Source: Haliotis rufescens
Taxonomy: Eukaryota
DNA length: 64,000 bases
Assembly (NCBI RefSeq): GCF_023055435.1
Contig: NW_025963790.1
Location: 496,001 to 560,000 of the forward strand
Direction of reading: 5' to 3'
In this document: piece by piece, positions 8,251-48,845 of the stretch
Layout: each line of letters starts with the position of its first letter
How positions within the stretch are numbered: the stretch's first letter is position 1
Made by a program: the position numbers and the translations under genes
Notes under the pieces: model-generated
Seen by the model: only the letters and a program-made list of their open reading frames with translations
What the model was told of the DNA's origin: nothing
Database searches by the model: none

Positions 8251-8405
8251 TAGGGGGCACAGGTGGCACAGTCGTCTAAGGTGCCGCGATTCGCTGTGCA
8301 GGGTTGCGTCCTTGGGCACGCCAGAAACCTATGATTGTGGGTTCGAATCCCGGTTCGCCCCGATTATGTTTCTATGTTTGTCAGCACCATACCCGTGCTC
8401 GTGGG
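8251..8405 (+). mobile_element. SINE family B 5' half at the left junction of duplication copy 2
   Basis: Matches 18613-18766, then switches abruptly to the duplicated sequence. Confidence 0.82.
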
Positions 8406-8657: not shown

Positions 8658-9939
8658 TATACTTGTTAGCAGTCATTAACAAAAAAACAAAAACACAAGT
8701 AAACAAAAGTCTTTACGGCCATTTGTCATGCAACGCCTTTCAAATTTTCAACGTGAACGTGCCATCGGCATGTTGCAGACGGGAACGTCCGTAGCTGAAG
8801 TCGCAAGGACGAGGGGTTGTAGTCAATGGACTGTTTATGATTTACAGACGTGTCTACAGCAAACCGGTACAACCGCTGATCGCCCTCGGCCAGGTCGACC
8901 ACGTGTGACGTCACATGCAGAGGATCGTCAGATTGTCTTACGTCACCTCCGTAACCGATTTTTGACCGCTACATCAAGCAGAAATGAACTGTTTAGGGGT
9001 AGACTGAGTGCGCAAACTGTTTGAAACCATCTGAGAACTGCTCACCTTCAAGCACGACGGCCATACTGCGGGCCGATTCTGACTCAATAACACAGACGTC
9101 AACGTCAATTGTGGGCACAGCGACACTTACGATGGACTCAGAGGAATTGGAATCAAGTCGTCTTCAGTGATGAATCCCGATTTAATCTTCGATTTGCTGA
9201 TGGTAGGGCGAGGGTGTGGAGGCGCCGTCATGAACGTTACGCCCAGTGTTGTGTACAGGAAGTTGACAGATTTCGAGGCGGAAGTGTCATGGTGTGGGGT
9301 GCTCTCTGTGGCAATGCACGTTCCAGGCTTCTTGTCATCCATGGCAATCTCAACGCTGCTCCTTACCGCGAACAGGTACTGGCACCAGAACTTCTGCCTT
9401 TTATGGCAGCACATGGACCCGCTTTGATCTTCCAACACGACAATGCCAGACCCGACACGGCAATTTTGACAAGGAATTTCCTTCAGAATGCGGGAGTCAA
9501 CGTCATGGACTGGCCGTCAAGGTCTCCCGACCTCAATCCCGTCGAACACGTCTGGGAGGGTCTTTGCAGAAGTCTGCGCACTCTCCAGAACCAACCACAG
9601 AATTTGAAAGATCTTGGCACCATTTTGCAGCAACAATGGCGTCGTCTTCCCAATCATGTGTTCACAAGCATCATAAGGTCCATGCGGAGGCATTGTGTGG
9701 CAGTTGTCAACGCACATGGAGGCCATACACTCTACTGAACTTGTGTGCCATCAGATTCACGTGCTTGGGACTTATGATTTAAACTGTTGATGTTATTACC
9801 GAATACCGTAGATGCTTGGAACAAATTATGGTTACCACCGTTAATTAAAATCCTTCTTTGGACATTAATGATACATTTGTCCGTTGTATATCATATATGG
9901 GATTACTTTTAAAAATGTGAAGTTTTTAATTTGACTCAG
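8658..9939 (+). mobile_element. Tc1/mariner DD34E transposon, left end missing; transposase 8728-9738 has two in-frame stops
   Basis: HTH region with GRPR, then FSDESRF, FQHDNARP-34-SPDLNPVE. The right end (...tttgactcag|TA) has no inverted partner on the left. Absent from duplication copy 1. Confidence 0.92.
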
Positions 9940-18463: not shown

Positions 18464-18944
18464 TTGACGGTGGGTGGTCTGACTGGGAGGTAAGGGTGAC
18501 CGACTGTACGGCCTCGTGTGGAGGGGGGTTACAGGTGTACATCGAGACAAGGAGCTGCACCAACCCACCCCCGAGTCATGACGGAGCATCTTTCCAGGCC
18601 TTGAGGCTAAACGGGGCCACGGGTGGCCCAGTCGTCTAAGGCGCCGCGATTCGCTGTGCAGAGTTGCGTCCCTTGGGCACGCCAGAAACCTATGATTGTG
18701 GGTTCGAATCCCGGTTCGCCCCGATTATGTTTCTAGATTTGTCAGCACCATACCCGTGCTCGTGGGTTTCACCGAAGTGGTAAACGTCTGGGACCTGCGT
18801 CACTTCGGGCTTTCCTCCCACATTAAGGTGACACGCCGTGATATATCTGGAATACTGTTAAAAGCGGCGTTAAACCCAACTCACTCGCTCACTCACTTGA
18901 GGCTTAACAGCGCACTGAGGCTTGCTGTCTTGAACCATGCCAAG
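18464..18944 (+). pseudogene. Orphan TSP1 exon of a Pif-like paralog, frameshifted and split by a SINE
   Basis: cag|VDGGWSDWEVRVTDCTASCGGGLQVYIETRSCTNPPPSHDGAS/PGLEA[SINE 18613-18895]QRTEACCLEPCQ(G)|GTGAGA. Same phase 1-1 boundaries and W/C spacing as exon 34378-34560. Confidence 0.85.
18613..18895 (+). mobile_element. SINE family B (tRNA head, V-domain-like TTTCCTCCCAC core, (TCAC)n tail), full length with target-site duplication
   Basis: A box tggcccagtcgtctaagg and B box ggttcgaatccc; 13-bp TSD cttgaggct(a/t)aac. Other copies at 8251-8405, 20620-20750 (-) and 39391-39662. Confidence 0.88.
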
Positions 18945-19092
18945 GTGAGACACATGATTCTTAAAACGAATCGGTCTGTACAACGGTCACTCTCTATACC
19001 AGTTCCTTTGTTTACTGATAAGTTCATCGTAAAATATATCAATATCAATATTGTGTCAACGCAAAAGTCTCCTTGCTTTGTAATATGATGCT

Positions 19093-19820
19093 GACCCATG
19101 AAGATCCGGAGCAGAATAGGTCTTCAGCAACCCATGCTTGCCGACTATGCTTGTCGTAAGAGGCGACTAACGGGATCGGGTGGTCAGGCTCGCTGACTTG
19201 GTTGATTCATGTCATCGATCCCAATTGCGTGGATCGATGCTCATGATGTCAATCACTGGATTGTCTGGTCCAGACTCGATTATGTGCGACGTTAAACAAC
19301 AAAACAACCAACCATCTTACAGTATTTGGTCTTAAAGCGAATTTTCAAAATGAAAATCTTTTTAAACCTGTATTTAAAACTATCTGTCGTCGACACGTTT
19401 ATACCAGCGTCACAGGATTTCAGTCAGTTTCAGCATTAATTATAAGTCCCGTATACAGAAGGTGAAGCAATAAGGGAGTCTCAATTCCGAGTGGACCCGT
19501 GAAGAATAGGTCTTCAGCAACCCATACTTGTCGTAAGAGGCGACTAACGGGATCGGATGGTCAGACTCGCTGACTTGGTTGATGCATGTTATCGATCCCA
19601 ATTGCATGGATCGATGCCCGTTGTGTTAATCACGGGATTGTCTAGTGCCCGACCACTTGATCCCGTTAGTCACCTCATAGGACAATAATGGGTTGCAGAA
19701 GACATATTCTAACCCCACTTGACAATTAATTAATGAGCGAACCTTTAGACCCTTGAAGATCCGGAATAGAATAGGTCTTCAGCAACCCATGCTTGGCGTA
19801 CAAGGCGACTAACGGGATGG
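19093..19820 (+). mobile_element. Cluster of SINE family A copies and fragments
   Basis: Copies at ~19093-19310, ~19495-19640, ~19650-19710 (-) and ~19748-19820. Confidence 0.8.
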
Positions 19821-19829
19821 GCTGTGCAA

Positions 19830-20058
19830 GCCCACTGAGATACCATGTCACAATTTTGACATGAATACCCACACAGACACAACATACTGAATCTGAGCCG
19901 ACCAGTCCCTGTTTTAGCCACTTAATGCCGAGCGCCAGACATGGTAACACCAAGAAGTATAATCTGTTTACGTCTGTCGGTATGACGTGGCCGGGGATCG
20001 AACTACCGACGTATCTCTTTCTGGGCAAGCGCTCTATCCACTAGGCCACGGAGGCAGT
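19830..20058 (-). mobile_element. SINE family D (tRNA-derived, CORE-like body); second copy at ~4850-5075
   Basis: Minus-strand A and B boxes (gtggcctagtggatagagcg, gttcgatccccgg); body 'gagccgacca...aatgccgagcgccag' shared with 4940-5000. Confidence 0.72.
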
Positions 20059-20257
20059 TAAGAAACCAACACATGGAGCAATTAATTTGATTTAATCCAA
20101 ATAGTATTCAGACACAGAAAGAGAAGTGCTATCAAAGTGTACATGAATAGTATTATAAGATAAGAAAGAGAAGACATCTTCAAGTTGGTAATGACAGTTC
20201 AACATTTGGTGGCCATCAGTGCATATCGGCATGTGTAATTGTGCTTCCTTATCGTTG

Positions 20258-20299
20258 TTATAACCAGTTTAGGGTCGGCGTGCACATAAACACGTCTAC
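20258..20299 (-). pseudogene. Relic terminal exon of a Pif-like paralog (VDVFMCTPTLNWL*)
   Basis: gtgttccag acceptor, phase 0; resembles [14 protein letters not shown] of the intact gene. Short, so moderate confidence. Confidence 0.5.
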
Positions 20300-20519
20300 C
20301 TGGAACACCACATTCACATGGGTGACAATGAAGCCATAGAAAGTCATACGACGATCAGTGAACACTGGATAATTGCGCACTGAATTCTAAAATTATTTAT
20401 GAATTGCGTCGTGGTCTAAACGCCACTTGGTATTTTGTTCAATTACATCATGGCGAATTAACAAAATACCATTGACACGGGTAACAAATGAGAAATGTTT
20501 TGATTCTGAACGATTTTCT

Positions 20520-20584
20520 ATGAGGCCACGAAATGTCCCCCACACCGCTGTTGTACCGACAGCTGGTGCACGGGTTCACTGAAT
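20520..20584 (-). pseudogene. Truncated CBM14 exon start of a Pif-like paralog
   Basis: ctccttag acceptor (phase 1), then SVNPCTSCRYNSGVGDISWP, versus [19 protein letters not shown] in the intact gene. Confidence 0.75.
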
Positions 20585-20852
20585 CTAAGGAGTTAATAAA
20601 TCTATGGGCCTTTCAACCTTATGCAGGTACTGACACATCTAGAAACATAATCGGGGCGAACCGGAATTCAAACCCACAATCATATTTTTCTGGCGTGCCC
20701 AGGGACACAACGTATTGCGACGCCTTAGTCAGCTGGGCTCCCCGTGTCCCCTCTGGTCATCGATAGACTGGAGGATTATCAATAGTTTACAAGGTCACTT
20801 GCCTTTGCAGTCTATTGTGCCGCAATCCACATATGCCGTGTTGGTTCCGGGC

Positions 20853-21335
20853 CCCTTAGCGCTACGACTGTTGAAAGTCTATTTTAAAGTATGCGAGTTA
20901 CAGTCACCTTTGCGCCACGACTGTCGTAAGTCTATGTTAAAGCATGGGACTTACTGTCCCCTTAGCGCTACAACAGTCGTAAGCCTATGTTAAAGTATGC
21001 GAGTTACAGTCACCTTAGCGCTACAACAGTCGTAAGTCTATTTTAAAGTATGCGAGTTACAGTCACCTTAGCGCTACAACAGTCGTAAGTCTATGTTAAA
21101 GTATGCGAGTTACAGTCACCTTAGCGCTACAACAGTCGTAAGTCTAAGTTAAAGTATGCGAGTTACAGTCACCTTAGCGCTACAACAGTCGTAAGTCTAT
21201 GTTAAAGTATGCGAGTTACAGTCACCTTAGCGCTACAACAGTCGTAAGTCTAAGTTAAAGTATGCGAGTTACAGTCAACTTTGCGCCACGACTGTCGTAA
21301 GTCTATGTTAAAGTATTGGAGTTACAGTCACTTTA
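20853..21335. repeat. 53-bp minisatellite, ~9 units
   Basis: Unit ccttagcgctacaacagtcgtaagtctatgttaaagtatgcgagttacagtca. Confidence 0.95.
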
Positions 21336-21555
21336 GCCTGTATTATTTGCAACATTTATGTGTCTATACCATCTTTGGCTGATCACAAACAAGGAACAAT
21401 TGCTTACACTTCCAAGATCTCGTTCTCACATGTTATTGTCACACCACAAATACACAATACGACCGGCATCCCTGGAATTGGACGCGGGGAAATTAATTGA
21501 CAAGATCATATTTTTGCAAAATCAAAATATTTGGAAATAATGCCAATCATTATAG

Positions 21556-21697
21556 GTAGTTACTGTGGGTGTTGGTAACAGAGTTAACACGGAGGAGCTG
21601 ATGGGTATCGCATCGTATCCTGAGAATGTCAAAGAGCTCCCCAACTTTGACGAACTTCGTTCAAACATCGCACAGCTAGTACTGAAAGTTTGTATCG
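21556..21697 (+). pseudogene. 3' fragment of a VWA exon from a Pif-like paralog
   Basis: VVTVGVGNRVNTEELMGIASYPENVKELPNFDELRSNIAQLVLKVCI aligns ungapped (16/47 identical by my count) to the end of exon 32231-32773. It stops at the same splice position, with ATTAGT in place of a GT donor. Confidence 0.85.
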
Positions 21698-21827
21698 ATT
21701 AGTATTCGTCAATTATTGTGCCCTGAACGCTTTTCGTTTCTTGAAAACATTTTCATCGCAACTATTGTGACATGCTTTTAATGCCTTTCGTAGTTACTGG
21801 ACGTTGTGTAGCCGTGGTGTTTATATA

Positions 21828-21990
21828 GAGTGAGTGAGTATGGTTTTACGCCGCATTTAGCAATATTCCAGCAATATCACGGCGGGAAACATCAGAAATG
21901 GGCTGCACACATTGTATCCATGTGGAGAATCGAACCCAGGTCGTCGGTGTGACAAGCGAACGCTTTAACCACTAGGCTACCCTACTGTCC
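21828..21990 (-). mobile_element. SINE family C
   Basis: Reverse-complement match to 42716-42878. Confidence 0.85.
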
Positions 21991-22084
21991 ATGGACTCCC
22001 TGAGGTATGGGAGGCCAAACTTTGTTCAGATACATTGACAACTCGACAAGTGTGCCTAACTTTTGTGGTAAGACATCACGGCAA

Positions 22085-22830
22085 GAAGTAGACATCCCCA
22101 TGGGCAACAACTGTGCTCCCCTTCTTGTGGATCTGTTTCTTTATGCATATGAATCGGAATTTCTGCTCGGACATGCAAAGTCAAAACAAGGTCATTTAGC
22201 CAAGAATTTTAACTTAGGCTTCAGGTATATTGATGATCTGATATCGTTCAATAACCACCAAACAGTCAATTCCCTTCCACTGATTTACCCTCATGAACTA
22301 GAAAAAAAGGAGACAAGTGGGACCGCCTCATATGTTTCATATTTCGACCTATGCATAACGATTCAGAGTGACAAAACACTCTCCAGCCGCTCCAGCCTTT
22401 GGTGTTTATATTTCACAACGTTTGAGATACATACGAGCATGCTCTTTCCACCAAGACTTTTCTTCAGAACATTCAAGGCCCCAGTAAAGCTTTCAAAAAG
22501 TTTTATGGTAGACAAGTGCAGGATATTTCCAAACTTGACGCATCAATGACAAAAATGACTTGTACCATATGTTCCTGTGTTTTTTCAGGTGAACAATTGA
22601 CTTGCCTTTGCATGTGTTCGTAACATCAATGGCGTACATCAATGGAGCTGTCACAGACAAGATATTAGAACTGTGCTGTAATAATGTTATTTGAGGCCTT
22701 GTCAGTAGCAACAACTACAAACTTTGGATGACAGCTGGCTGAAACAGAATGGGTTTATTCCAATTCAGTTTCCTCTTTGTAAGTTTGTGCATTCTACCAA
22801 TGACAACATCACGCACTGACTTAACCCTCT
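22085..22830 (+). mobile_element. Penelope-like element reverse transcriptase fragments (last ~160 bp inverted)
   Basis: IPMGNNCAPLLVDLFLYAYE and [12 protein letters not shown]; minus-strand KFVVVATDKASNNII near 22680-22730. Confidence 0.8.
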
Positions 22831-23278
22831 CTGAAATACATTCAACACATATAAACATGTTTTGGACGGCTGAATACATCTAGATATATTGTACTCAAAC
22901 AGATTCATGTCCTGCCTGCTCACAATGGGACACATTGAAAACATGGTATTTCATTTTCAATGGATTTCTAATATAGGATTTTATTGCCAAAATCCTTTTG
23001 TAGAGGATATGGACAAATAAATAGGTCAACATAATGGTATGGGTTATAATGACATCGTGATGAATAGTGACGTAGTTTTACTGTTGTTGTTAAACGCCGC
23101 ATTGGTCTATCTAAATGGCGGCCGATCAATAGTTGACAACGCTGCTGTTGACTAACGATTGCATAACGTCCAAGCTGTGTCGGGTTATCATGACACGCAA
23201 CAATGTCACGGAGTCTTGCCACCCGTTCTATTCCGTCGCCTTGTACGACGCTGATATCAGACTATACGGAAATAAAAA

Positions 23279-23848
23279 ACCCGTGAAGATCCTGGGTAGA
23301 ACAGGTTTACAGCAACCCATGTTTGCCGCAAAAGGCGAATATGCTTGTCGTAAGAGTCGACTAACGGGATCGGGTGGTCAGACTCGTTGACTTGGTTGAT
23401 GCATGTCATCGTATCTTAATCGCGTGGAGCAATGCTCACGATGTCAATCACTGGATTGTCTGGTCCAGACTCGATTATTTACAGACCGTCGTCATATAGC
23501 TGTAATATTGCTGAGTGCGGCGTGAAACAAACAAACGGAAATCTAAAAAAACCATCAGACCTCTTTTAGGTGTAGTTTGGGTCCAATTGAGATGGAATCT
23601 TAGATGTATGTCTGCATCACACCTTTCGTGATTCAAAGTTGAGTGTGCTTGTCGTAAGAGGCGACTAACGGGATCGGATGGTCAGGCTCCTGACTTGGTT
23701 GATCGATGCCATTGTATCCCAATTGCGTGGATTGATGCTAATGATGTCAATCACTGGATTGTCTGGTCCGGACTCGATTATTTAGAAACCGTCGTCATAT
23801 AGCTGGAATATTGGTGAGTGCGGCGTCAAACAAACAAACAAACAAACA
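23279..23848 (+). mobile_element. Two SINE family A copies (23279-23535, 23646-23848)
   Basis: Family match; the first is flanked by ggaaat..aaaaaa direct repeats. Confidence 0.85.
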
Positions 23849-25752
23849 ATCATGAATGTAACTCTACTGGAAGTATTAACTTTTTTTTATAATTTACACG
23901 ACAAAAGACACCACCAAACGTCTTTCAACAGTCATTAGATGTACAATGTACCCTTGTGCACAATAATAATAAAAAAATATGTTTGAATTTATCATTCAGA
24001 AGGGAGAAATGTTGAGTTGAGAGGATAACATGTTTGAGTCAGTGACACCTTTTTGTCATTTTCTATAGAAGCACCTTGACACATTCCCCTCCAGGTTCAG
24101 TTTACAGATTGCAAGTGAACGATACAGCATTCATCGTTCAGAAAGTGTACCCATCGAATGCTGATTTCACGAACGGCGTTGATGGAAACTTATGTCTCGA
24201 ATATATTTAAGTATAATACGTCGACACCAGACAATAATAAGTCGCGATAATCGGCCGAAACAGATTCCATTATTATATTTTACATTCAGTTTTTTTAATG
24301 AATATAATACGTCAGCGTCCCGATTATCCGACGAAACAGATCCCATTGTTTGTAAAAGGCAAAATAGCAGGGGGAAATTATATGAATGAATCACTTAAAA
24401 TCAATTCTTACACCCGGCGAAAAGGGTACCAATGGACGATATTTTGTCGTATTAACATTTGCTTTGCGAGATAACTTCAATAAATATACTGCACTGATAA
24501 CGTAATAATTTCACCGTGACGTACAATGTATTTATAATGTGTTTTACATTAGGTGATCTGGTCTTTCTTCATGACTATCTTTGAAGACAAAATAACGGAG
24601 TGGGACTAATTTACTTACTGATAGAAACAACATTCATCAGTTGAACTAAACGTTTAAATAAATTAAAACCCGTTCAGTTTCGGTACAAATTTACAAACAG
24701 CAATACCACGGCAGAGACGAGGAACATCATGGCGCAAGCTCCTCTACAGAAATCTTTTGTATTACCATTAGTTCGTTGGATGCATTCTACGAATAACGCA
24801 ACTACACTTCACAAAGTTGGTCTGATAATAGGGATCTTTCAATAGTCTAAAGATACATGTTTTTCAAAGGAGACATTAACTACGCCTACGTTACGTAAAC
24901 GTGAGGGTCACTTCGTGCGCGTCATTTCTTACTTTCCACCCACTAGCGAGGTTTGGGTTAAACCCATTCTCTGAATTACTCACCTGTGAATACATCCTTT
25001 ATCTGTTCATGCTTTATGAGCGAATACGTCGATAGTGGCGTGGCGATATATATGCAGCAGCTATAAAAAGAAAGTTTTGTCCGATGTACCAGATTTCATA
25101 TCAGATATGCGTGATGATTCTTGTTATAATAATACACATGCAATCATACCAACTTTCCAACCATGGCGTGGCATTTTAAAATCATACTGCACAAAAAACA
25201 TTTTTTTTGTAAATATTTAAAATTGAAACTCTTACATTTACATCGTCGTTTTGTCGTAGGAAACGACGATGCAAATGAATGTTTGAAAACTGATTTATGC
25301 AGAGATTTCTATAGGATATGGAAAAGGTGTTGTCGCTTTGTTTGTATCATCATGTTCACATGAATCCAGCAGGTTTAGTGACATCCTGTTATGCTTGAGC
25401 ATAATTTGGAGAAGAATATTCCTCAAAATAATTTACGTCAGGTGTGATAAAACATAATTGATTCATTTGACAAAAAGGTGAACAGAATGTTGAGCTTAAT
25501 GTTGGCCTGAGTCACTCCAGGTTGTCTTCCCACGTACGCAGTGGTATCAAGAATGGCTAGTGTTTTTCAGGGAGATTATTGACTTGCCTAGACATGATTG
25601 TGTATATGAATCATAAATATGTGCTCATGAAAAAGTCGAAATTGTGCAATGGATTCTGCTTTAGTGGAGATTTCTTGTGATAATGGAAAGGATTTTGTCG
25701 CTTGTATCTGACTGAATGATACCGAGGAGTGTCGTCTATAAGTCTGTACAGT

Positions 25753-26910
25753 CGTTACGCTTCAATAGGCATGTAGACCTGTACACGACCATGTGTCATC
25801 TTGAATGTAAGGCCTCAGTAGGCATGTAGACTTGGACACGTCCGTGTGTCTTCTTGCACTCGACGTCTAAGTAGGCATGTAGACCTGTACACGACCGTGT
25901 GTCGTCTTGAATGTTACGCCTAAGTAGGCAAGTAGACTTGTACATGCCATTGTGTCTTCCTGAATTTTACGTCTAATTAGGCATGTAGACCTGTACATGT
26001 CATTGTGTCTTCATGAAAGTTACGTCTAAGTAGGCATGTAGACCTGGACGCGTCCGTGTGTCTTCTTGAATGGTACGTCTAATTAGGCCTGTAGACCTGT
26101 ACACGTCCGTGTGTCTTCTTGAATTTTACGTCTAATTAGGCATGTAGACATGTACACGTCATTGTGTCTTCTTGAATGTTACGTCTAATCAGGCATGTAG
26201 ACATGTACATGTCCGTGTGTCTTCTTGAGTGTTACGTCTAAGTAGACATGTAGACCTGTACACGTCCGTGTGTCTTCTTGAAAGTTACGTCTAATCAGGC
26301 ATGTAGACATGTACACGTCCGTGTGTCTTCTTGAAAGTTACGTCTAAGTAGGCATGTAGACCTGTACGCGTCCGTGTGTCTTCTTGAGTGTTATGTCTAA
26401 GTAGGCATGTAGTCCTGTACACGTCATTGTGTCTTCTTGAATGTTAGGTCTAAGTAGGCATGTTGACATGTACACAACATTGTGTCGTCTTGAGTGTTAT
26501 GTCTAAGATGGCATGTAGACCTGTACACGTCCGTGTGTTTTCTTGAATGTGACGTCTAATTAGGCCAGTAGACATGTGCACAACATTGTGTCTACTTGAA
26601 TGGTACTTCTAAGTAGGCATGTAAACTTATACACGTCCGTGTGTCTTCTTGAATGTTAGGTCTTAGTAGGCATGTAGACCTGTACACGCCCGTGTGTCTT
26701 CTTGAATGTTTCGTCTAAGTAGGCATGTAGACCTGTACACGTCATTGTGTCTTCTTGAACTCTACGTCTAAGTAGGCATGTAGACCTGTACACGTCCGTG
26801 TGTCTTCTTGAAAGTTACGCCTAAGTGGGCAGGTAGACATGTACACGTCAGTGTGTCGTCTTAAATATTACGTGTAATTAGGCATGTAGACATACAAGGC
26901 CGTGTGTCTT
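25753..26910. repeat. 53-bp minisatellite, ~22 units
   Basis: Unit gttacgtctaagtaggcatgtagacctgtacacgtccgtgtgtcttcttgaat. Confidence 0.95.
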
Positions 26911-28412: not shown

Positions 28413-29445
28413 TTGGACATAATCTCAATGTCAGTGTTGATTTTGTTGATGGTTCTGTACAGCTGGACGGTACAGAAATGAGTGTAAACCAAGCGAAGTG
28501 CCATATCAATTCGGCTCAGACTCAGTTTTCAAGGAGAGGCTATCTGAACGACCACTGCATCGCATTTATTTGCAGTGTGTTGAGATGGTAAGCAACCCCA
28601 AGAAGTGCTTCGCTTGGATGAAGTCGGCTGGCCTGAAAAGTGAACCAAAAGGCCTTCTATTCGCTGCTCAAGACCAGTCACTTCCTTCTCGAGACCGTGA
28701 AACCAAACGTGAATACGAAATGTAGATTATGCAATGAATTTAATGATACGGTCCAACACATTGTCAGTCGATGCAGATCTTTGGCACAAACACAATATCT
28801 TAAGCGACATGATGGAGTGTCTCGATCATTTTATTACCGTCTTCGCCTTGGTTGTTGTTTTGACACAGAGGTCCATCCACGGTACAACACAGAATATGTA
28901 GAGGGCGTCATGGAAAATGATAAAAACAAAATTTATTGGAATAGGCCAATATATAGCCTCGGACCTATCATGGCCAACAAACCTGATCTTGTCCTTTTCG
29001 ATAAATCCAGTGAAATCAGTTTTATTTTTGAGTTTTCTGTTCCTTTTGACACCAACGTGATTGACAAGATTCAGGAAAAAACATGGCAAATATGCGGACC
29101 TCGCTTTCGAAAAGTCACGCTAGCATCCCAAGTACCAAGTACGACGCCCCATTGTTCTTTGGTACCTCCCAATCTCTTGACTGAAGTTGGGAGAGTACCA
29201 GGGTTTGTTGCTAGGAATTCAGCCCTTCTAACAATCTGGGTAATGCAGAAGACTGCAATGTTGGGGAGTCTTCACATTCTCCGAAAAGTTCTTGGTGGGT
29301 TTGACTGGGTAGCGCTTTCTGGGAGAAGTCCGATTCGCCTGTAGAGGGGGCAAGGGCCCTGAGCTGATGATGAGCCAAACCAACCTGACTGTGCCAGGAT
29401 CACCCAATCCCTCTTTGCTACATTTTTTATTTTAATCTGTAAATG
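28413..29445 (+). mobile_element. 5'-truncated R4/Dong-like (restriction-like endonuclease) non-LTR retrotransposon
   Basis: LLFAAQDQSL; CCHC knuckle CRLC...VQHIVSRC; YLKRHD; NKPDLVLFDK...FEFSVPFD (PD-D endonuclease); MQKTAMLGSLHILRKVL. Flanked by TAA repeats. Confidence 0.85.
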
Positions 29446-31153: not shown

Positions 31154-31160
31154 TATATAA
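31154..31160 (+). promoter_or_regulatory. TATA box (TATATAA) of the Pif-like gene
   Basis: gtgTATATAAggg lies about 25-30 nt before a TCA initiator-like site and about 90 nt before a strong donor (G|GTAAGA at 31246). Confidence 0.65.
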
Positions 31161-31182
31161 GGGTGTCACTGTCATTTACTTC

Positions 31183-31245
31183 ACAGGGCCTGTGACCAGC
31201 GAGACCGTGACTGCAGAACCTGCCTGGCTAGACTATTTTTATAGG
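31183..31245 (+). other. Putative non-coding exon 1 (5' UTR); start approximate
   Basis: Lies between the TATA box and the GTAAGA donor at 31246. The next acceptor (ttttcgtttag, AG at 31665-31666) is 24 nt before the ATG. Confidence 0.6.
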
Positions 31246-31690: not shown

Positions 31691-31757
31691 ATGAACTTTT
31701 TCGCGCTGTTTGCCTTTGTGGTCGGTGTAACCGTGACTACTGGCCAAACAACTCCTA
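31691..31757 (+). CDS. Coding exon 1: signal peptide [22 protein letters not shown]
   Basis: aaaATG context, hydrophobic core, small-residue cleavage site, phase-1 donor GTAAGT at 31758. Confidence 0.82.
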
Positions 31758-34700
31758 GTAAGTATTAACAGTAACTAAGTTATCTGTCCATAATTAGTAT
31801 GTCATCTGCCTATCCTTCTCCATCCATTCATCCTTCCAACCGTACTTCATGTGATACATGACTTTAATGAGATGAAGAGATTCGACCTGATAATGTCTTG
31901 TCATCACCTTGTTCCTCAAAGTGGTAAATGTCAAAGATTTCAACACTTTGGGTTTACCCTTTTCGCCAACACTTTGAATAACTGCTTTTCAGCAACCCAT
32001 TCATATACCTTTCACCACTATTTAGCGGTTTACTAACAATTGAATCTGTTTCGGCAGATAATCGAGACTGGTTAGTCTCTGGCGTGGACGTTATAGATTT
32101 CCTCTCATGACTTACACGCCATAATATATATTTGAAATAATGTTCACAGTGGCTTAAAAACAAACATATATATTTCTACTTGATGAAATAAACGTTTAAA
32201 CTATTTATTTATCATAATCGTTTTTTTCAGACTGCGCACGCCTGCTGGATGTGATCGCTGTTGTAGATGGTTCTGACAGCATCCAGGTGAATGATTTCGA
32301 CACTCTGAAAAACGCGCTTGTCAATCTGACGAACTTTCTTGATATTGGGACTGCAGGACCGATGTTCGGCGCCGTTATATATAGCTCTACCGTCACTGCT
32401 ACAGCTCCCCTCAGTACGGACAGTGCACTATTGCAAAGTCAGATACTGGCATTTGTCCTTCCACAGGACGGAACAAACACACACCTTGGAATCGCTGAAA
32501 TGACACGAATGATGCAGGAGTATGGTCGGAATGGTGTTCCCAAAGTTGGCATCGTCATCACCGACGGAAGGTCCAAAGACCCTGCAGCGACAATCGTAGA
32601 AGCTGCCAAAGCCAGAGCCAACGGTATCGAGATGCTTGCTATTGGAGTCGGTACTGTTATTGACATGTCGGAATTGAAAAATATTGCCTCATCTGATGAC
32701 CAAGTCAAGAGCATTTCCGATTTCAATGAAGTAAGCGCAAGCGTTCTGGATTTGGTGAAGTTAGTTTGCAAAGGTGAGACCACTGTAGTACAGACAATGA
32801 TTCATTAAAGCAGTGTCTTTATATTGGTTAGAATGGAGTGATATGATCATGCAGACTGTAAAGGCCATTCGTATGTTTGTTTCAGGAACAACCTTGTGAA
32901 TGCATGAAATGATCTTTCCCCATGGGCACCAATTGCGTTCCTCTTCTTGTTGATCTGTTTTTTTAGGCATATGAATCAGAATTTCTGCTCGAATTGGCAA
33001 AATCAATATAAGATAATTTGGCTTAAGCTTCAGGTCTATTGATGATCTGATATCGTTCAATAACCATCAAATAGCCAATTCCCTTCAACTGATTTACCCA
33101 TCTGAACAAGAAATTCATCTGCTTCATATTTAGATCGATGCATAAAGATTCAGAGTGACATCAACTTTCCAATCGTCAACTTTCCCTTTTTGTCTTGGAC
33201 ATTCCAAATTTGACGCACCAGTGACAAACATTATGTCTGATGCAATTCCCTATCTTGAGTCCCTTTGTACCCTGTGTTCACTCGTTTTTCGCGCGTGGCT
33301 ATTTGACTTGCCTTTGCATGTGTTTGTGACGGGTGCCACCGGTGTGGCAGGATACCCTCACCTTTTCGCGAACACCTCGTATCATCACTATTAGATAGCG
33401 ATTCATAAACACATGCTCATGACATAGTCGGGATTGTACAATCGAATCTAGCAGATATTTCATATGCATATCGAAAGGGTTTTGTTGCTTTTATTTATTG
33501 AATGTTGTCTAGAAGGCAGTATGTAAAAAATGAATGAATATTTTAATAATAGTTCATATTATTGACACTTTGGGCACAGAGCTTACACTGATTCTTGAAC
33601 AGAATAAATATGTTATGTAGAAAAGCCTGATATTACGTCACGCTCTGCAGAATTGAGAAGACGATCTTATGCTCCTGGAAATGCATTGTATCTGACATTG
33701 TGTCTTTTTGTCACACTATACACTACCATGCCATTTACGTAAATGTAAAGCTATATAACAATATAGTTGCATCAGACGTTTTTATCTAAATTAGGTGAAA
33801 GAGGTATCATATCTTTAATGTGAGATCACAAACACTGAAGGACAACTTCAACGTTGGCGGACTAACTCCTGAGGGTATAAAACGAACGACTACCCTAAGC
33901 ATGATACACTCTGTTTGTAGATTGACAGCGTTAATGCTGATTTTTAAATTACTTCCGCGTCTATTCGGCCTATTTTTATAATCACTTGATCGGGGGATTT
34001 AACAATGTATCACGGTCAGCGACATTTTGAAAATCTCTCTCGGTGATCGTGTCGGCTATGTTGATGTTCTGTTATAGACACAGTCAACGACTTACTGCAG
34101 TAATTCTTCCTAACAAAGCGACGTGTACATTGCTCATGAAATTATGACATAACCCCTGTGTACAATTAAGTACATTACTGGAGGGTAATTATCATTTTAC
34201 CAGCATATGGATCCCAATGTGCCTACGAGGCCACAGATACCATTCGATAATTTTACACATCCTACGGGAGAGCAGAAACAAATACCATGTTCCAAGTTCA
34301 TAAATTTGGCCCTCATTCTACGAAGGTAAAAAAACTCCTATATAGAAAGTGAAAGTCTATTCTATTGTTGGCTACAGTTGATGGAAACTGGACTGAGTGG
34401 ACGGTTACAACCGGTGCATGTTCAGCGTCGTGTGGAGGAGGATCTAGAACCATATCCAGGACCAGGACCTGCACCGACCCTGAACCCAGCAACGGCGGAG
34501 CGGACTGTGTGGGATCAGACAGAGAAGATTATACAGAGACTTGTAACACTGAATGTCCAGGTGGGAACCAATAAATATACAAAACACTGATTTAGATGTG
34601 TATACGTTTAAGTTCACTTTACATCTTAGATGGATACAAATATCAGAATTGAAAATAGAAATACGCCTGCATATGTGTCTGTCAAAGAAGTTATTATTGA

Positions 34701-37188
34701 AAAAGTATCAGATTGGGTATTTATGTTGTTTTACATTACTAAATCGTTTTTTAAAAAACAGTTTTCTTACTTCGATTTCAACCCCTCTTTGTTAAGATCC
34801 GAAAAGTCTCCACATGACCAGAAACAGACACATTGCATCAGATCAGTATCTGGTTTCATTCAACCATGTAAAATTTCTATATATTATATTATCTATATTT
34901 TCCAGTTGGTGATCCATGCGATGGGTGTCGGTATGACAATGGTGTGGGGTACATGCGTGACGAGACGGACTGTGCCCGTTATTACCAGTGCGTGCGACCT
35001 GGGACAACCGTTTCATCCCACCACAGGACCTGTCCCCCTGGTCTTTACTGGAACCAAGGAGTCCTGGTTTGTGATTGGCCGGCTAACGTCCAATGTACCG
35101 CAGGAAGTGTAGGTGCGTAGTTAAATTTTATCCTCCATTATTTAGCAAACTGCTGTGTTGAGTGTTGCCTTCCCGTAAGTAGTGCTGGCATCTAACTACA
35201 TTCACGAAGTGTCTATTCCGTAATACAGAAGAAGTATCTCCAAAATATTTATATGCGAACAGAAACCAATGAAGGTTGAAAACAAGAATCCATGGACATG
35301 TTCCAGGCAGGTCTAATATCAGGTTACAGAACATGAAACTCAATACTTTATATCAATGTAATTGCAGGAGTACTGCTGTCCGGCGTTAGGCAACAAACAA
35401 ACACTTACCTTTTCATGCAAATTGTGTGAATGGCGGGTGCTAACGGAAAAGCAGGAATGCTTACCCTCTACACGAACACCCGATGTTATCACTGATTTTC
35501 AGTGGTCCGTTCATTTTATATTCACAGCTATTTTTCTGTTATTGATTATAACTGTTTCGAGACTGGTTATTTTATGGCGTTGACTTTTTTATATTTAAAA
35601 CGAACAATGAACTTTGCATTTTGTAGAATTTTGTCATTTTGTGAAAATGATTTTGTCAGGTGTTTTTATTGCTTGTTTATGATGTGCAGCTGCCACAGCC
35701 TCCACAGTGCAAATTACCGTACCTTCAGCCTGCGATGGCTCAATCAGGGGTTCGTCTGGGGATCAGGCGAAGTATGAGAAACTTGACCATGGTATTTGGA
35801 CTGAAATGCCCTGTCCTCCAGGAACTACATACTCGAGCACCATTTGCACCTGCATCAGTGACGGGTTAATATTGGCAGCAGGTACGTCCGAACACTTCTA
35901 TATAAGTTGAAACTCCGTATGGAACCGTGAAGATACGGGGTAGAATAGGTCTTCAGCAACCCATGCTTGTTGTAAAAGGCGACTATGCTTGTCGTAAGAG
36001 GCGACTACCGGGTTCGGGTGATCAGGCTCGCTTACTTGGTTGATGCGTGTCATCGTATCTCAATTGCGTTAATCGATGCTCATGATGTCAATCATTTGAT
36101 TGTCTGGTTAAGACGCAATAATTTACAAACCACCGTCATATAGCCAGAATATTGCTGAGTGCGGCGTTAAACAACAAATAAAACTCCCTACTGGATTAAT
36201 TCAATTATGTGTTACCCTCAAGGTTATAAATAACCGAGTTAATAAAAATCGTTGTGCACTGGTGTAAATATCACATCACACGCACCAGTGTATTGTTTCC
36301 CTCACCCGGACGGCATTGTTGATGTCATTCGAATGTTATTGTGACGCAAGGACGGAATGACGTCACACTAGAAACGGCGTTAAAGCTTAAGATTGTTGAT
36401 TTTTGTTAAAGTTAGCGGGCGTGATCAGTGCATATTTCTAAAGAGGAGTTCAAACGGATTGCGAAATAATGGACCACAAGGAAAATTAAACTCGTGAGAG
36501 AAATTGTGTATTATCCTCGCTCTAGCTCGGGAAATACAAGAATTCTGACATTCGTTTCGTAAAATCAGCATGACACACATGCTCTTATAATAATCTCAAT
36601 TTGGAATCTTTCTTAATTTCAGGTTGTAAGCCTGACTTGTACCTCCCGTTCAACGGCACCGTCCAGGACTATTCCGGCTACAACGTCGCAGTTCAGAACG
36701 TTGGTGTTACTGCTGTCTCCGGCTATGGCATCTTCAACAACAACATCCAACTCCGCATCCTGCGTTTCTCCAACATGGATTTCGGCAACGTTCTGGTCAT
36801 CTCTTTCTTGTTCCGACAAACTCAGGCCACGAGCAAGGCTCAGGCTATCGTCACCAACGCCGACTGCGAGGAGGCGGGCAGCATCTACATCACCACCAAC
36901 ACGTCAACAGTCTCCTTCCGTGTCATCAACGACGGTAACGTCACACATGAATTGTCCGTGTCTTACTCAGTAAGTAAACAAAGCCAAATGCAGAGCCTTC
37001 AACAAGAATGTTATCTGTATCATACACAGTGGTTATGTCAGCCATGCACAGTTAAAAAGTAGCTAACTGATTGATGGGGGTCAGACATCAGCATTTTTCA
37101 TACAGTCCTCATAAAGAGATGAACCGTGCGCTGCTGAACACCTGAAATGGGTTTAAGGCTCTATGGACATTATATCTGTTGTATCACA

Positions 37189-37220
<32 letters not shown>

Positions 37221-39909
37221 CACGTAAAAACAACAAATGTAATGAGATAAAGGTGGAAACTAGGAAAGCCAACAGTAGACTTGATTCGTGTATTGTATCA
37301 ACATTCCGACAACCCCACACAGCTGTTCTTACAAACAAGTGATATACCTATCAAGCTATTGCTACTCAGCATGTACAAAACCAACCGCCGTCTCTTGCCC
37401 AGTATAAAGAGGGACCTTTGTTACATAAAAATTTATCTGTCGCTGTCGCATTTGATTCAGGTAATAATGATGAGTGCATTGCAAAGCTATTACTGGATAA
37501 AATGTGTTCGGGTTATTTATGTCGCAAATTTTAGTGAGTCCGTGATTAATAGTTTCTTATCTATTGCAGAACACCGCCGCCATGAACAGTGTCAAGTTGA
37601 CGGTAAACAATAACTTGATGAAAGCTGAAGTTAACAGTGCCTACGACCAAAGAACGTTCTCTGGTAAAACACGCAGGATATTCTAATATTACTGATCTAT
37701 GTTATTTCCCGGGGATTCTTAAATATATTGACATGTTGAATATACAATGAGCGAAACGTACCATTATCCTCGGTCCATGGCGGTACCACTGGGGCAGGAC
37801 ATATTCATGGTTTTGCCAACATTGGTATGATTGCTCTATTTTTGATAGTGATTCCTGAGTTTGTTGCTTCCATAGGCAAGCATGACTGTTCGTACCATAA
37901 GCCTGATGTTAATGTGATACATTGTATTGTGTAGCGACGATATCATCCCAGGAGGTTTATGGTAGATATTCAGAGACATATTCGGTCTGTAAATAATCGA
38001 GTCTGGGCCAGATAATCCAGTGATGGATATCATGAGCATCGATCCACGCAATTTTGGATACGATAACATGCATCAACCAAGTCAGCAAGCCTGACCACCC
38101 GATCTCGTTAGTCGCCTCTTACGACAGGCATAGTCGCTGGTGTCATAACAGATTTTCATTGATCCATACATATACTTATGACTGCTAGTTTGCCTTTGAC
38201 GCCCAATGGAATCTGTTTATTCCCTCGCATTGTCGTTTTATGTTTAAGATTTTAAGATTTTCAATATTGTTTCAATCTGAACACCCTTCTAGAAACCTAC
38301 TTTTCCGCCATATTGTTGTTTTCAGAGGGTTATTTGTAATCTCGAGCAGATTTAACTTAATATCTACAGTACCCCCGGTATGGTAACCTGTAATCGTCTT
38401 AACGTCTTAACCATAGTACTCAAAGGAATCAAACTGAATCATATCCACTGCAATATAACGTTGAGACTAGAGAATCGGGACTCATTGTTCTGTGGCGTTG
38501 CCGTTTTGAATGTCAATATGTCCGGGTTTAAATATCATAATGGTTGTGTAAATAGCTGTTACCAACCATAATGTTGATATTCGCATGACATATTGTATTG
38601 TGTAACGACGGACCTTTTCTGTATCTCCAGGCAACATCAGACGGAGCCAGTGTGCGATCCAAGTGGGTCATGGGAATGGTTATGACTTCTTCCGTGGTCA
38701 ACTTGATGAAGTAAGTTAACCACAGTGTTATATATGTTACAGTCTATGTGTAAGATGAATGAAATTTCCCGAAGGCAATTTGCAAAACGCCAAAATATTT
38801 AAGAATTTGTTTGTTTGGACTGGATAAAAGTTATAAAGGGTTAAATACATCACAACAGGCTAATAGTGCTGGGATTAGAAACTAAAAATTAAAAAAGAAA
38901 TTCCTTGAAAATACAGTGAAAATTTCAGCCATTTTATACGTTTTCTACAATTGCCCCTTGGAACATTTAACGTTAACACACGCATAATTGAGTTGTGTTC
39001 ACGTCGACCATCTTGTTTAGAGAGAAACCCCGTTAAACCGGAACCGCTAGTCCGCCGACTATACCTTCCAGTTGACTACTGTTTGAACGTCTATCTATTA
39101 CAAAAAGGCATTCTTCGCATCCATGATTCGTTCATCTGGAAATGTGTTTAATCGGGGACATTTCAATGGGAGCAGGCCCGGTTTGATCAACAGAGGTGGA
39201 TTAACAGACATGTTTATGTAATACTCATTCATACTTTATGGAATAGGCACATAACATGCAGATGCTTAACTATTCATGAACAATTCGACCTGAACTGTTA
39301 CAAAAACAGATGGTTTCAATATACGTGCGTAATAGTACCATGTAGGTGAGTGAGTGAGTATAGTTTAACGCCGCTATTAGCAACATTGCAGGGGCACGGG
39401 TGGCCTAGTCGTCTAAGACGCCACGAGTCGTTGTGCAGAGTGGCGTCCCTTGGTACGCAAAAAGCTATGATTGAGGGTTCGAATCCCGGTTCGCACCGAT
39501 TATGTTTCTAGGTTTGTCAGCACCATACCCATGTTCGTAGGTTTCACCAAAGTGGTAAACATCTGAGACCTGCATCACTTGGGGCTTTCCTCCCACATTT
39601 CGCTGACACGCCTTGATATAACTGGAATATTGTTAAAAGCGGCGTTAAACTCACTCACTGACTAGCAACATTACAGCAGCCGGGGCACCACACATTGTTC
39701 CCAAGCGGGAAGTCGAACCCGGGTCGTCGGCGTTACGAGCGAACACTTTAACCACTAGGCTACCCAGCCGCGTAGTTGTATCATGTAACTCTTAAGAAAC
39801 ACATGATCTACAATAAAATGAATTTATTTACGATTTTTTCATTCATTGTTTCATTCTGTTTCAGCTGAAGGTGTATACATGCATCCCTACCCCTCTGCTG
39901 ACCAAGTAA
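31691..39909 (+). CDS. Pif/BMSP-like secreted matrix protein (SP-VWA-TSP1-CBM14-CBM14-like-LamG), 585 aa; join(31691..31757,32231..32773,34378..34560,34906..35112,35690..35881,36623..36969,37570..37663,38631..38710,39865..39909)
   Basis: Manual splicing: every intron is GT..AG and the phases (1,1,1,1,1,0,1,0) join into one open frame of 1758 nt ending in TAA at 39907-39909. The domain order VWA + chitin-binding + LamG is that of the molluscan Pif/BMSP family. Confidence 0.88.
32231..32773 (+). CDS. Coding exon 2: von Willebrand factor A domain with intact MIDAS motif
   Basis: tttttttcag acceptor; [16 protein letters not shown]...GTNT...IVITDGRS...IGVG...ELKNIAS...VCK; donor G|GTGAGA at 32774. 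Confidence 0.95.
32915..33400 (+). mobile_element. Penelope-like RT relic in the intron after the VWA exon
   Basis: Nucleotide similarity to 22095-22620 (ccccatgggcaccaattg..., ttcaggtctattgatgatctgatatcgttcaataacc). Confidence 0.75.
34378..34560 (+). CDS. Coding exon 3: thrombospondin type-1 repeat
   Basis: VDGNWTEW...CSASCGGG...[19 protein letters not shown]...ETCNTECP; phase 1-1 exon with ctacag acceptor and GT at 34561. Confidence 0.92.
34906..35112 (+). CDS. Coding exon 4: chitin-binding type-2 (CBM14/peritrophin-A) domain
   Basis: [69 protein letters not shown]. This frame is not listed in the ORF track. ttttccag acceptor; GTGCGT donor at 35113. Confidence 0.92.
   Translation: MVIHAMGVGMTMVWGTCVTRRTVPVITSACDLGQPFHPTTGPVPLVFTGTKESWFVIGRLTSNVPQEV
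35690..35881 (+). CDS. Coding exon 5: degenerate second chitin-binding-like domain
   Basis: [64 protein letters not shown]; tgtgcag acceptor; GTACGT donor at 35882. Confidence 0.85.
35922..36183 (+). mobile_element. SINE family A, intronic
   Basis: Full-length family match. Confidence 0.87.
36623..36969 (+). CDS. Coding exon 6: laminin-G/concanavalin-A-like domain, first part
   Basis: [19 protein letters not shown]...[12 protein letters not shown]...QAIVTNADC...; tttcag acceptor; GTAAGT donor at 36970. Confidence 0.9.
37570..37663 (+). CDS. Coding exon 7: LamG-like domain, continued
   Basis: ctattgcag|[31 protein letters not shown](G)|GTAAAA; phase 0-1 fits both neighbours. Confidence 0.8.
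37983..38137 (-). mobile_element. SINE family A fragment, intronic, antisense
   Basis: Family match. Confidence 0.82.
38631..38710 (+). CDS. Coding exon 8: LamG-like domain, continued
   Basis: tctccag|[27 protein letters not shown]|GTAAGT; carries the typical LamG 'F.G.LDE' end motif. Confidence 0.88.
39391..39662 (+). mobile_element. SINE family B nested in an antisense SINE C (39345-39775), in the last intron
   Basis: TSD tagcaacatt(g/a)ca at 39378-39390 and 39663-39675. Confidence 0.85.
39865..39909 (+). CDS. Coding exon 9 (terminal): [14 protein letters not shown]
   Basis: ttctgtttcag acceptor, phase 0; completes the 'DE-L.VY.C' motif; stop TAA. Confidence 0.82.
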   Translation: MKVYTCIPTPLLTK

Positions 39910-48084: not shown

Positions 48085-48845
48085 TCATGAAACGTCAGGC
48101 ACACGTCAGAATAGTGTTGCACAAACGCTGCATGTTTCTCAATCTGTCATCAGCAGATTGTGGGTCCTATACCAACGAAATCGAAACTCCGGCCAAGGAC
48201 AGATTTGTGAGAACGATGGCATCAAGGAATCGGCGTCAAACTGCCTCAAATAAGGGTCTAGTTGCAACAGGAAACTGTCGTCCACTTCTCGCTGTGTCAT
48301 ATGAATCAGAGACGTCAGTGGTGTAGGAAACGTCAGCACTAAGATAATCGACGTTGGGCTAATGTCATGTTTTCTTACAAATCGAGGTTCACTATCGACT
48401 TCCATGATCGAAAGATTCGAGTTTTGAAACGATCGAAAGAGCGTTTTGTGGACGTTTTGTGGACGTTAACATCTTACAGCAAGATCGTTTTAGGGTGGGT
48501 CCATATCATGGGTTGGTATCACAATGACTGGAAGAATTGCGTGCTCGGCACGTTTTATTTTTCAAGATGATCATGCACGTCCTTATCGTGCCAGGACTTT
48601 GTCCAAATTCCCAAAGCAAAACATCCATGTCAAGCCATGGCCAGCACTCAGTCCTGTCCTTTCCCCAATTGAACACACTTCAACGCTTTTACGTCAACGT
48701 CAAAATCCACCCACCAAACTCAATGCTGCTCTCACTGACGAGTTTAACAACATGTGTCAAGCTGACATTGGTCGACTTATCATAAGACTGCCTCGAAGAA
48801 TTCGAGCATGTTTGGCAATCAGAGGTGCTTTAACCGTATATTAGT
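48085..48845 (+). mobile_element. Heavily decayed Tc1 transposase relic
   Basis: FIFQDDHARPYRAR...WPALSPVLSPIEH...RRIRACLAIRGA and upstream KSRFTIDFHDRKIRV; many frameshifts. Confidence 0.8.

What the first reader, a model, noticed from the sequence alone, without database searches (positions are those of the whole stretch)
18464..23630. Scrambled, partly inverted relics of a Pif-like paralog upstream of the live gene
Seen in sequence: four exon relics homologous to the intact gene, in an order no single transcript could have: TSP1 (+, 18464-18944), terminal exon (-, 20258-20299), CBM14 start (-, 20520-20584), VWA end (+, 21556-21697). They keep the same splice positions and phases as the live gene but are strongly diverged (VWA piece 16/47 identical). 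Inference: an old tandem paralog with the same architecture was broken up by inversions and deletions, or the pieces were carried in from another locus. The TSP1-Pif gene would then belong to a birth-and-death family with modules still being rearranged.
Basis: partly seen in the sequence, partly recalled or inferred. Interest (0 to 1): 0.72.

Follow-up and report, generated by a model that had tools for sequence, protein, structure and literature searches.

The report
Dead Pif-like gene debris in abalone
Four broken exon pieces upstream of an intact abalone Pif-like (shell-matrix-type) gene are remains of an old, now dead relative, and their odd order is most likely the join of two tandem copies with one small inversion and deletions, which is ordinary decay in a gene cluster.

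Summary
The relics are real. The live gene (9 coding exons) encodes the 585-aa Haliotis rufescens 'protein PIF-like' exactly. TSP1 and VWA pieces score at HMM E 1e-12 and 2e-9. The CBM14 start beats 40 of 40 shuffles; the terminal exon is marginal alone. All match the abalone VWA-TSP1-CBM14-LamG family best. Corrections: the VWA piece starts where the live gene has no intron, its donor is lost, and the 'TSP1 exon' includes a ~285-bp repeat insertion. The pieces are not decayed copies of the live neighbour: silent sites are near saturation while Cys/Trp/Gly are kept, so the parent was a long-working paralog that died later. No intact parent was found. The order needs 3 inversions of one gene, but only 1 if it is the join of two tandem copies. 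Public DNA runs hold each piece, with breaks and indels that differ between animals; none bridges the repeats, so orientation between blocks is untested. Pif cluster turnover is already published for oysters. Earlier scan notes held nothing on this locus. Ordinary pseudogene debris; interest 0.22.

The parts
18464..18612 (+). TSP1 exon relic, 5' part (phase-1 acceptor); Cys lost and 1-nt deletion inferred near its end
   Evidence: family-type spacing without gaps
18613..18895 (+). SINE-like repeat inserted in the TSP1 exon; target-site duplication 18600-18612 / 18896-18909 (SINE label is inferred from its form and copy number)
   Evidence: 88.6% to 39391-39659 and 94.8% to 8253-8405; duplication D15
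18897..18944 (+). TSP1 exon relic, 3' part with in-frame stop; intact GT donor at 18945
19503..19710 (.). two truncated copies of a repeat joined back to back at 19646/19647; a candidate inversion breakpoint, not proven
   Evidence: inverted pair I2; self-BLAST
20258..20299 (-). terminal (LamG end) exon relic, phase-0 acceptor, stop at codon 14
   Evidence: alleles at 20280 and 20294 in other animals raise the family score from 19.9 to 22.4
20523..20584 (-). CBM14 exon start relic, phase-1 acceptor, cut after about 20 codons
   Evidence: allele 20564 (Ser to Gly, the family residue) in 3 of 4 runs and a 13-nt deletion at 20542 in 2 of 4 runs
20626..20751 (-). head half of the same SINE-like repeat, cut off at 20626; junction differs between animals
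20854..21337 (.). 53-bp tandem repeat, 9.1 copies; blocks bridging by short-read contigs
21556..21697 (+). VWA C-terminal relic, 47 open codons; begins after an AG where the live gene has no intron; donor reads AT
31691..31757 (+). live gene, signal-peptide-like first coding exon
32231..32773 (+). live gene, VWA exon
34378..34560 (+). live gene, TSP1 exon
34906..35112 (+). live gene, CBM14 exon
35690..35881 (+). live gene, second CBM14-like exon
36623..39909 (+). live gene, LamG-like exons 36623-36969, 37570-37663, 38631-38710, 39865-39909
   Evidence: Pfam Laminin_G_3 E 0.012, below cut-off

Best explanation
The four pieces are dead remains of an old abalone VWA-TSP1-CBM14-LamG (Pif-like) paralog lineage, and they likely mark the join of two tandem copies in which one small block was inverted and most of both genes was deleted. 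Shown: homology to this family, strands, splice signals, disabling lesions, long divergence from the live neighbour with conserved residues kept, and many paralogs listed on one contig in two species. Inferred: (1) the lineage worked for a long time as a separate gene; (2) it was duplicated head to tail, so the join read TSP1, CBM14 ... terminal exon, then VWA of the next copy; (3) a deletion brought the CBM14 start to within 221 bp of the terminal exon, and this block of at least 0.4 kb was inverted, with deletions on both sides; (4) repeat insertions and small indels went on eroding it and still differ between animals. The debris has no predicted function.
For: Order and sign are +2 -4 -3 +1 (VWA=1, TSP1=2, CBM14=3, terminal=4): 1 reversal from a tandem join, 3 from a single copy on either strand. 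CBM14 start and terminal exon keep their native order on the minus strand. Tandem context: P0001, P0003, P0006, P0158, P0159, P0161 are listed with one 927,538-bp contig length; P0002, P0005, P0008, P0160, P0069, P0168, P0021 with one 20,514,301-bp length. Long life under selection: 14 of 22 four-fold sites in identical residues differ (TSP1 plus VWA); neutral decay of the live TSP1 exon to 53 base differences gave 22 or more identical residues in 0 of 20,000 runs, VWA P 0.022. No intron or UTR likeness to the live gene in 10 comparisons (8 to 189 of 200 shuffles reach each score). Death: insertion, stop, inferred 1-nt deletion, lost donor; a 13-nt deletion in the CBM14 piece in 2 of 4 runs and a change of the first VWA base in 1 of 4.
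Against: No breakpoint is resolved and no unrearranged copy is in hand. No contig bridges the repeats at 19093-20060 or 20626-21337, so the orientation of the blocks rests on the assembly alone. It is not shown that the four pieces come from one lineage; the VWA tree leaves the relic on a long branch in an open fork. The VWA piece starts at a site with no intron in the live gene, so it has either its own intron or a chance AG at a break. No signal-peptide or VWA 5' relic of a second copy was found. Three copies in alternating directions explain the order with deletions alone.
Confidence: 0.55

Rival explanations
1. No inversion: three paralogs in alternating directions (+, -, +) were each cut down by deletions, leaving TSP1 from the first, CBM14 start and terminal exon from the second, and the VWA end from the third.
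For: Reverse tandem duplication is the route proposed for the bivalve Pif_LamG3 cluster (PMC10543319, passages read). The pieces match different family members best: VWA P0069, TSP1 P0008, CBM14 start P0009, though on short stretches.
Against: Needs three copies and six or more large losses inside 3.3 kb. The survivors form a non-redundant, circularly permuted set, which a tandem join gives for free (weak: four of nine exons often do not repeat by chance).
Confidence: 0.2
2. The pieces were copied in from another locus, as templated insertions or through a circular intermediate, which would also give a permuted order.
For: No DNA likeness to the neighbour outside the TSP1 exon. Contigs branch at 20228 and about 20374 in three runs, with about twice the depth between, as if the terminal exon also sits in other flanks (depth is a weak measure).
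Against: No close parent protein was found: best 56% by the word search, 0 of 8 candidates scored for the VWA piece, best 25/42 among 1,347 repeats held. The pieces lie 10-13 kb from a live family member in a cluster. One run (X2) has an unbroken contig 19921-20279, so the branch looks polymorphic, not fixed.
Confidence: 0.11
3. One gene copy was broken by three or more inversions, as the first reader's 'scrambling' implies.
For: Each exon type occurs once; back-to-back repeat halves at 19646/19647 and a cut repeat at 20626 could be breakpoints.
Against: Needs 3 reversals against 1. An inversion between the inverted repeat copies at 18613 and 20751 is excluded, because both halves of the TSP1 exon and both target-site copies stay on the + strand.
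Confidence: 0.09
4. The pieces are real but their order or direction is an assembly error across repeats.
For: In 3 of 3 organism-A runs the contigs leave the window sequence at 20623 and nothing covers 20626-20648. No listed contig spans the region.
Against: One organism-B contig follows the window across that junction (20565-20648, 4 differences; 25 letters checked past it, short of a formal bridge). Overlapping contigs join the CBM14 and terminal pieces as in the window. The live gene beside it is assembled to a perfect protein.
Confidence: 0.05

Closest known systems
Bivalve Pif_LamG3 gene cluster (PMC10543319; passages read)
   Same: Clustered VWA/chitin-binding/LG genes shaped by tandem and reverse tandem duplication, domain gain (SCR repeats) and VWA loss. 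The abalone family shows the same: VWA present or absent, 0-12 TSP1 repeats between VWA and CBM14.
   Different: That paper describes live genes in bivalves; 'TSP' and 'pseudogen' do not occur in its main text. Here the inserted module is TSP1 and the object is dead debris.
Pif/BMSP family, PifCCP subfamily (PMC11291548; abstract, section 12 and passages read)
   Same: Secreted VWA + CBM14 + CBM14-like + LG layout with a repeated module between VWA and chitin-binding domains.
   Different: Sushi/CCP repeats in bivalves, TSP1 here; Haliotis was not among its sampled genomes and 'TSP' does not occur in its main text. Placement of the abalone VWA in its tree was not tested.
Haliotis laevigata nacre protein idb_25730 (PMC6003135; passages and supplement rows read)
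   Same: Listed as VWA, TSP1, chitin-binding x2, ConA-like: the same architecture, found in nacre.
   Different: Its listed peptide matches by eye the many-TSP1 member P0013, not the live gene in this window or the relics. Shell location of the window's gene is untested.
Deletion-flanked inversion (delINVdel) class of complex structural variants (PMC5338099; passages read)
   Same: An inverted block with sequence lost on both sides is the inferred geometry at 20228-20623.
   Different: Here it is old, in a pseudogene, inferred from exon order without an unrearranged reference, and may have formed in several steps.
Duplicated (unprocessed) pseudogene fragments in birth-and-death gene families (recalled, no call)
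   Same: Splice sites kept, disabling lesions, position in a tandem cluster.
   Different: The parent lineage has no close living member in the proteins found.

Membership tests
Pif/BMSP-like family (live gene) | VWA domain after a signal peptide | tested here: met
   PF00092 E 8.2e-26, residues 29-190; hydrophobic N-terminus seen in the sequence, no predictor run
Pif/BMSP-like family (live gene) | CBM14 domain(s) downstream of VWA | tested here: met
   PF01607 E 7e-13, 2 stretches
Pif/BMSP-like family (live gene) | C-terminal laminin G / ConA-like domain | tested here: inconclusive
   PF13385 E 0.012, 16.2 bits, under the 27.6 cut-off
Pif/BMSP-like family (live gene) | VWA falls in the Pif/BMSP clade of PMC11291548 | not tested
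   reference sequences of that tree were not fetched
Pif/BMSP-like family (live gene) | Present in shell matrix or expressed in mantle | not testable with these tools
   only a relative with the same architecture is reported in nacre
Pif proper (Pinctada Pif97/Pif80) | Acidic low-complexity Pif80 part behind a dibasic cleavage site (details recalled) | tested here: not met
   P0001 has no acidic low-complexity insert in its C-terminal half, by inspection
Duplicated pseudogene fragment (relics) | Best homology to a known gene family | tested here: met
   top 28 of 1,347 TSP1 repeats and the best 11 of 28 VWA ends are family members
Duplicated pseudogene fragment (relics) | Intron-exon boundaries kept (not a retrocopy) | tested here: met
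   3 acceptors and 1 donor at live positions and phases; VWA donor at the live position but mutated; VWA 5' edge has no live counterpart
Duplicated pseudogene fragment (relics) | Disabling lesions | tested here: met
   insertion, stop, inferred 1-nt deletion, truncation, lost donor; 13-nt deletion allele
Duplicated pseudogene fragment (relics) | Derived from the neighbouring live gene | tested here: not met
   14 of 22 silent sites differ; neutral-decay test rejects it for TSP1; no intron likeness
Duplicated pseudogene fragment (relics) | Not translated | not testable with these tools
   no RNA run was laid
delINVdel complex variant | Inverted segment with both flanking deletions resolved against an unrearranged allele | tested here: inconclusive
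   geometry fits; branch points at 20228, about 20374 and 20623 seen, their other sides not shown

The most novel reading that the evidence does not exclude
The locus is a live structural polymorphism: some abalone haplotypes carry this deep-branching Pif-like lineage in another, less broken or even intact form (the terminal exon sits in different flanks in three of the runs laid), so a shell-matrix-type paralog missing from all annotated proteomes found here would be present in some animals and shattered in others, with a TSP1-module family turning over within species.
Probability: 0.1. Interest if true: 0.55.

Novelty: new member of a known kind. Interest (0 to 1): 0.22.

Why it matters
Modestly. 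It records an extinct, long-diverged branch of an abalone Pif-like cluster and shows the death side of a family whose live members differ in VWA presence and carry 0 to 12 TSP1 modules. That TSP1-bearing cluster was not found described as a family in four literature searches, only as one nacre protein. The processes (tandem duplication, deletion, small inversion, repeat insertion) are well known, and Pif cluster remodelling is published for oysters. It would matter more if an intact form of the lineage segregates in populations.

Tried and rejected
No whole genome is held for this window, so genome-wide BLAST of the relics was not possible. Search for an intact parent: VWA piece, 8 candidates, none at E 10 or better; TSP1 piece, 15 of 15 candidates at 43-56%; representative search, only the best 150 of 1,420 hits listed and these are ranked by repeat number, so a single-repeat parent could be hidden; a family-alignment search timed out; Atlas gave an unnamed 49-aa cluster at 0.92 and VWA clusters at 0.89 and 0.86, leads only. 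These blanks are weak. Extra relics: a LamG-start look-alike at about 23625 (-) and a signal-peptide look-alike at 24730 (-) did not rise above controls; the ungapped scan has a noise ceiling of 29 and passed only the TSP1 piece and one repeat hit at 30.1 (my test of the 23625 candidate was in the wrong frame and is not used). The match of 24218-24428 to a live-gene intron is a repeat with further copies. A shared retroelement-like copy behind both VWA ends was weighed as a sign of common descent and rejected: copies are 75% alike while silent sites are near saturation, and flanks do not align. Inversion between the inverted repeats at 18613 and 20751: rejected (TSP1 halves not flipped). VWA tree: unresolved, 4 of 26 branches starred. 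No RNA holder was listed; no RNA run was laid. One search was swamped by repeats, so most joints and loose ends were not shown, 87 loose ends were not shown, among them those at the branch points. Of 24 runs listed, 6 were laid (X1, X2, X3, X9, X12, X13). In PMC6003135 files 13-27 of the supplements were not searched; they may hold the full idb_25730 sequence. Earlier scan notes: nothing by sequence or nearby; eight unrelated notes by words.
Full report
Setting. The window is abalone DNA. Nine exons from 31691 to 39909 (+) give a 585-aa protein identical to P0001, which NCBI names 'protein PIF-like [Haliotis rufescens]'. Pfam finds VWA (E 8e-26), TSP1 (5e-5), CBM14 twice (7e-13) and a weak laminin G (0.012, below cut-off). 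VWA, TSP1, CBM14 and CBM14-like are each one phase-1 to phase-1 exon, the layout that lets modules be duplicated or lost in frame (established knowledge, recalled).

The observation. TSP1 and VWA are clear: tblastn E 1.3e-10 and 7.8e-5, family HMM E 9.5e-13 and 1.8e-9, with reversed-window controls at 1.8 bits or less. The two short pieces fail ordinary searches (CBM14 E 0.2 and 0.074; terminal exon not found). I therefore scanned every AG on both strands with a family profile. The CBM14 start ranks 2 of 13,095 and no shuffle of 40 comes near (48.4 against 28.2). The terminal exon ranks 2 of 6,553, but 5 of 40 shuffles reach it, so it stands on its position 221 bp behind the CBM14 piece, its phase and its stop. 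Alleles in other animals help: the change at 20564 gives the family's Gly in 3 of 4 runs, and those at 20280 and 20294 raise the terminal score from 19.9 to 22.4. No fifth relic passed controls.

Corrections. The TSP1 interval holds a repeat of about 285 bp (18613-18895) between two copies of a 12-13-nt target site; without it the exon is 185 nt, against 183 in the live gene and 186 inferred from the 62-residue repeat of P0006, which points to a 1-nt deletion; the 3' part has a stop and an intact donor. The VWA piece begins after an AG at residue 157, where the live gene has no intron, and its donor position reads AT. So the claim of identical splice positions holds for three acceptors and one donor, not for all edges.

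Whose relics. Among 1,347 TSP1 repeats from the 210 proteins held, the top 28 are from the VWA-TSP1-CBM14-LamG family; 43 of the top 50 are, against 295 of all 1,347. For VWA the best 11 of 28 ends are family members, led by P0069 (H. cracherodii, 24/43), with the live gene at 16/46. The relics are not decayed copies of the neighbour. Four-fold sites in identical residues differ at 14 of 22. Random decay of the live TSP1 exon to the same 53 base differences never kept 22 residues in 20,000 runs and kept 10 of 12 Cys/Trp/Gly with P 1e-4; for VWA the test is weaker (P 0.022). Ten intron and UTR comparisons showed nothing above shuffles. The parent therefore worked as a separate gene for a long time and died later (inference). 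No close living parent turned up, which is weak evidence.

The family. Six proteins are listed with a 927,538-bp contig length in H. rufescens, the live gene among them, and seven with a 20,514,301-bp length in H. cracherodii; two more H. rufescens members are listed with a 61-Mb contig. The 19 members counted carry 0 to 12 TSP1 modules, 0 to 3 CBM14 starts, and VWA or none (some lacks may be partial gene models, and the pattern counts 4 TSP1 in P0003 where Pfam counts 6). The closest H. cracherodii protein, P0002 (91-96% identical), lacks the TSP1 module that the live gene has. This supports turnover of genes and modules.

The order. With VWA=1, TSP1=2, CBM14=3, terminal=4, the window reads +2 -4 -3 +1. 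A single copy needs 3 reversals. The join of two head-to-tail copies reads 2 3 4 1 and needs 1. In a tandem cluster this is the simplest history: one inverted block holding the CBM14 start and the terminal exon, with deletions inside and on both sides, like the delINVdel class named in PMC5338099 (passages). Three copies in alternating directions with deletions only is the main rival, since reverse tandem duplication is proposed for the bivalve Pif cluster (PMC10543319, passages). Breakpoints are not resolved. Back-to-back repeat halves at 19646/19647 and a cut repeat at 20626 are candidates.

Other animals. Of 24 runs listed, 20 hold the stretch or part of it and 11 hold half or more of its words, in 9 studies; one may be the source of the assembly. 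I laid 6. Contigs match the VWA piece (X1 21297-21717, 1 difference; X2; X3), the TSP1 3' half (X2 18884-19128, 0 differences), and, in an overlapping chain in X1, 19920-20623 with both minus-strand pieces. Organism B holds them too. No contig crosses the repeats between blocks, so direction between blocks is untested. Against a simple picture: X1, X3 and X9 all leave the window sequence at 20623 and go on for 96-110 other letters, while X13 (organism B) follows it for the 25 letters checked. In X1, X3 and X9 contigs also branch at 20228 and near 20374, with depth about double between (96 against 58 and 46; 92 against 34 and 63; 26 against 15 and 18), and X2 runs unbroken through 20228. Depth is no copy number. 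The pattern hints at another haplotype or copy with the terminal exon in other flanks; the letters were not shown. A 13-nt deletion inside the CBM14 piece occurs in 2 of 4 runs, as expected of unselected DNA.

What is known. The Pif/BMSP family is defined by VWA, CBM14 and LG domains, and one bivalve subfamily carries repeated CCP modules between VWA and CBM14 (PMC11291548; abstract, section 12, passages). A VWA-TSP1-chitin-binding-ConA protein is listed from H. laevigata nacre (PMC6003135; passages and supplement rows); its peptide matches P0013 by eye, not the window's gene. 'PIF-like' proteins are held distinct from Pif proper in PMC7850002 (passages). Four searches listed no paper on Pif-like pseudogenes or on a TSP1-bearing abalone cluster; I saw most hits only as listings, and the library lacks most subscription journals. 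SINE papers were seen as listings only, so the SINE label is my inference.

Verdict. Observation confirmed with corrections; interpretation partly supported. It is pseudogene debris of an old paralog lineage in a Pif-like cluster (about 0.9), most likely a tandem join with one inversion (0.55). New member of a known kind; interest 0.22. The bolder reading, that a less broken or intact form segregates, has about 0.1.

Noticed in passing
window 22095-22624 and 32917-33330: The only two window copies of a reverse-transcriptase-like repeat lie just behind the VWA relic and just behind the live VWA exon, same direction, 75% alike; flanks do not align, so independent insertion is likely, but the coincidence is unexplained.
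   Followed up: partly
window 20228-20374: Contigs of three runs branch on both sides of the terminal-exon relic with about double depth between; a fourth run does not branch at 20228.
   Followed up: partly
window 24730-24674 and about 25060-24984, minus strand: A signal-peptide-like 18-codon frame after an AG and a good start context, and upstream a TATA-like tract and a CAG/GTGAGT donor; may be the 5' end of another dead or unrelated gene. Not above controls for this family.
   Followed up: partly
window 22816-23002, 24462-24673, 24819-25042: A second form, 13-18 differences and 5-8 gaps per 180-230 nt, recurs in several runs: a deep allele or a duplicated segment.
   Followed up: no
window about 31154-31245: TATA-like tract and a probable non-coding first exon of the live gene with a GT donor at 31246 (seen).
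   Followed up: no
proteins P0001, P0002, P0003: The closest H. cracherodii protein lacks the TSP1 module of the live gene, and a 92%-identical H. rufescens paralog has three TSP1-TSP1-CBM14-CBM14-like blocks and no VWA.
   Followed up: partly
window 20854-21337 and 25766-26910: Two tandem arrays with the same 53-bp period but different units.
   Followed up: no
window 9091-9738, 44832-45335, 48494-48844; 28637-29344: Tc1-like DDE transposase remains (PF13358 for the first) and a non-LTR element end with a zf-RVT hit.
   Followed up: no
window 49048-50813 and 52526-53300: A 9-bp-period array of about 198 copies that yields false low-complexity ORFs, and a 68-bp array.
   Followed up: no
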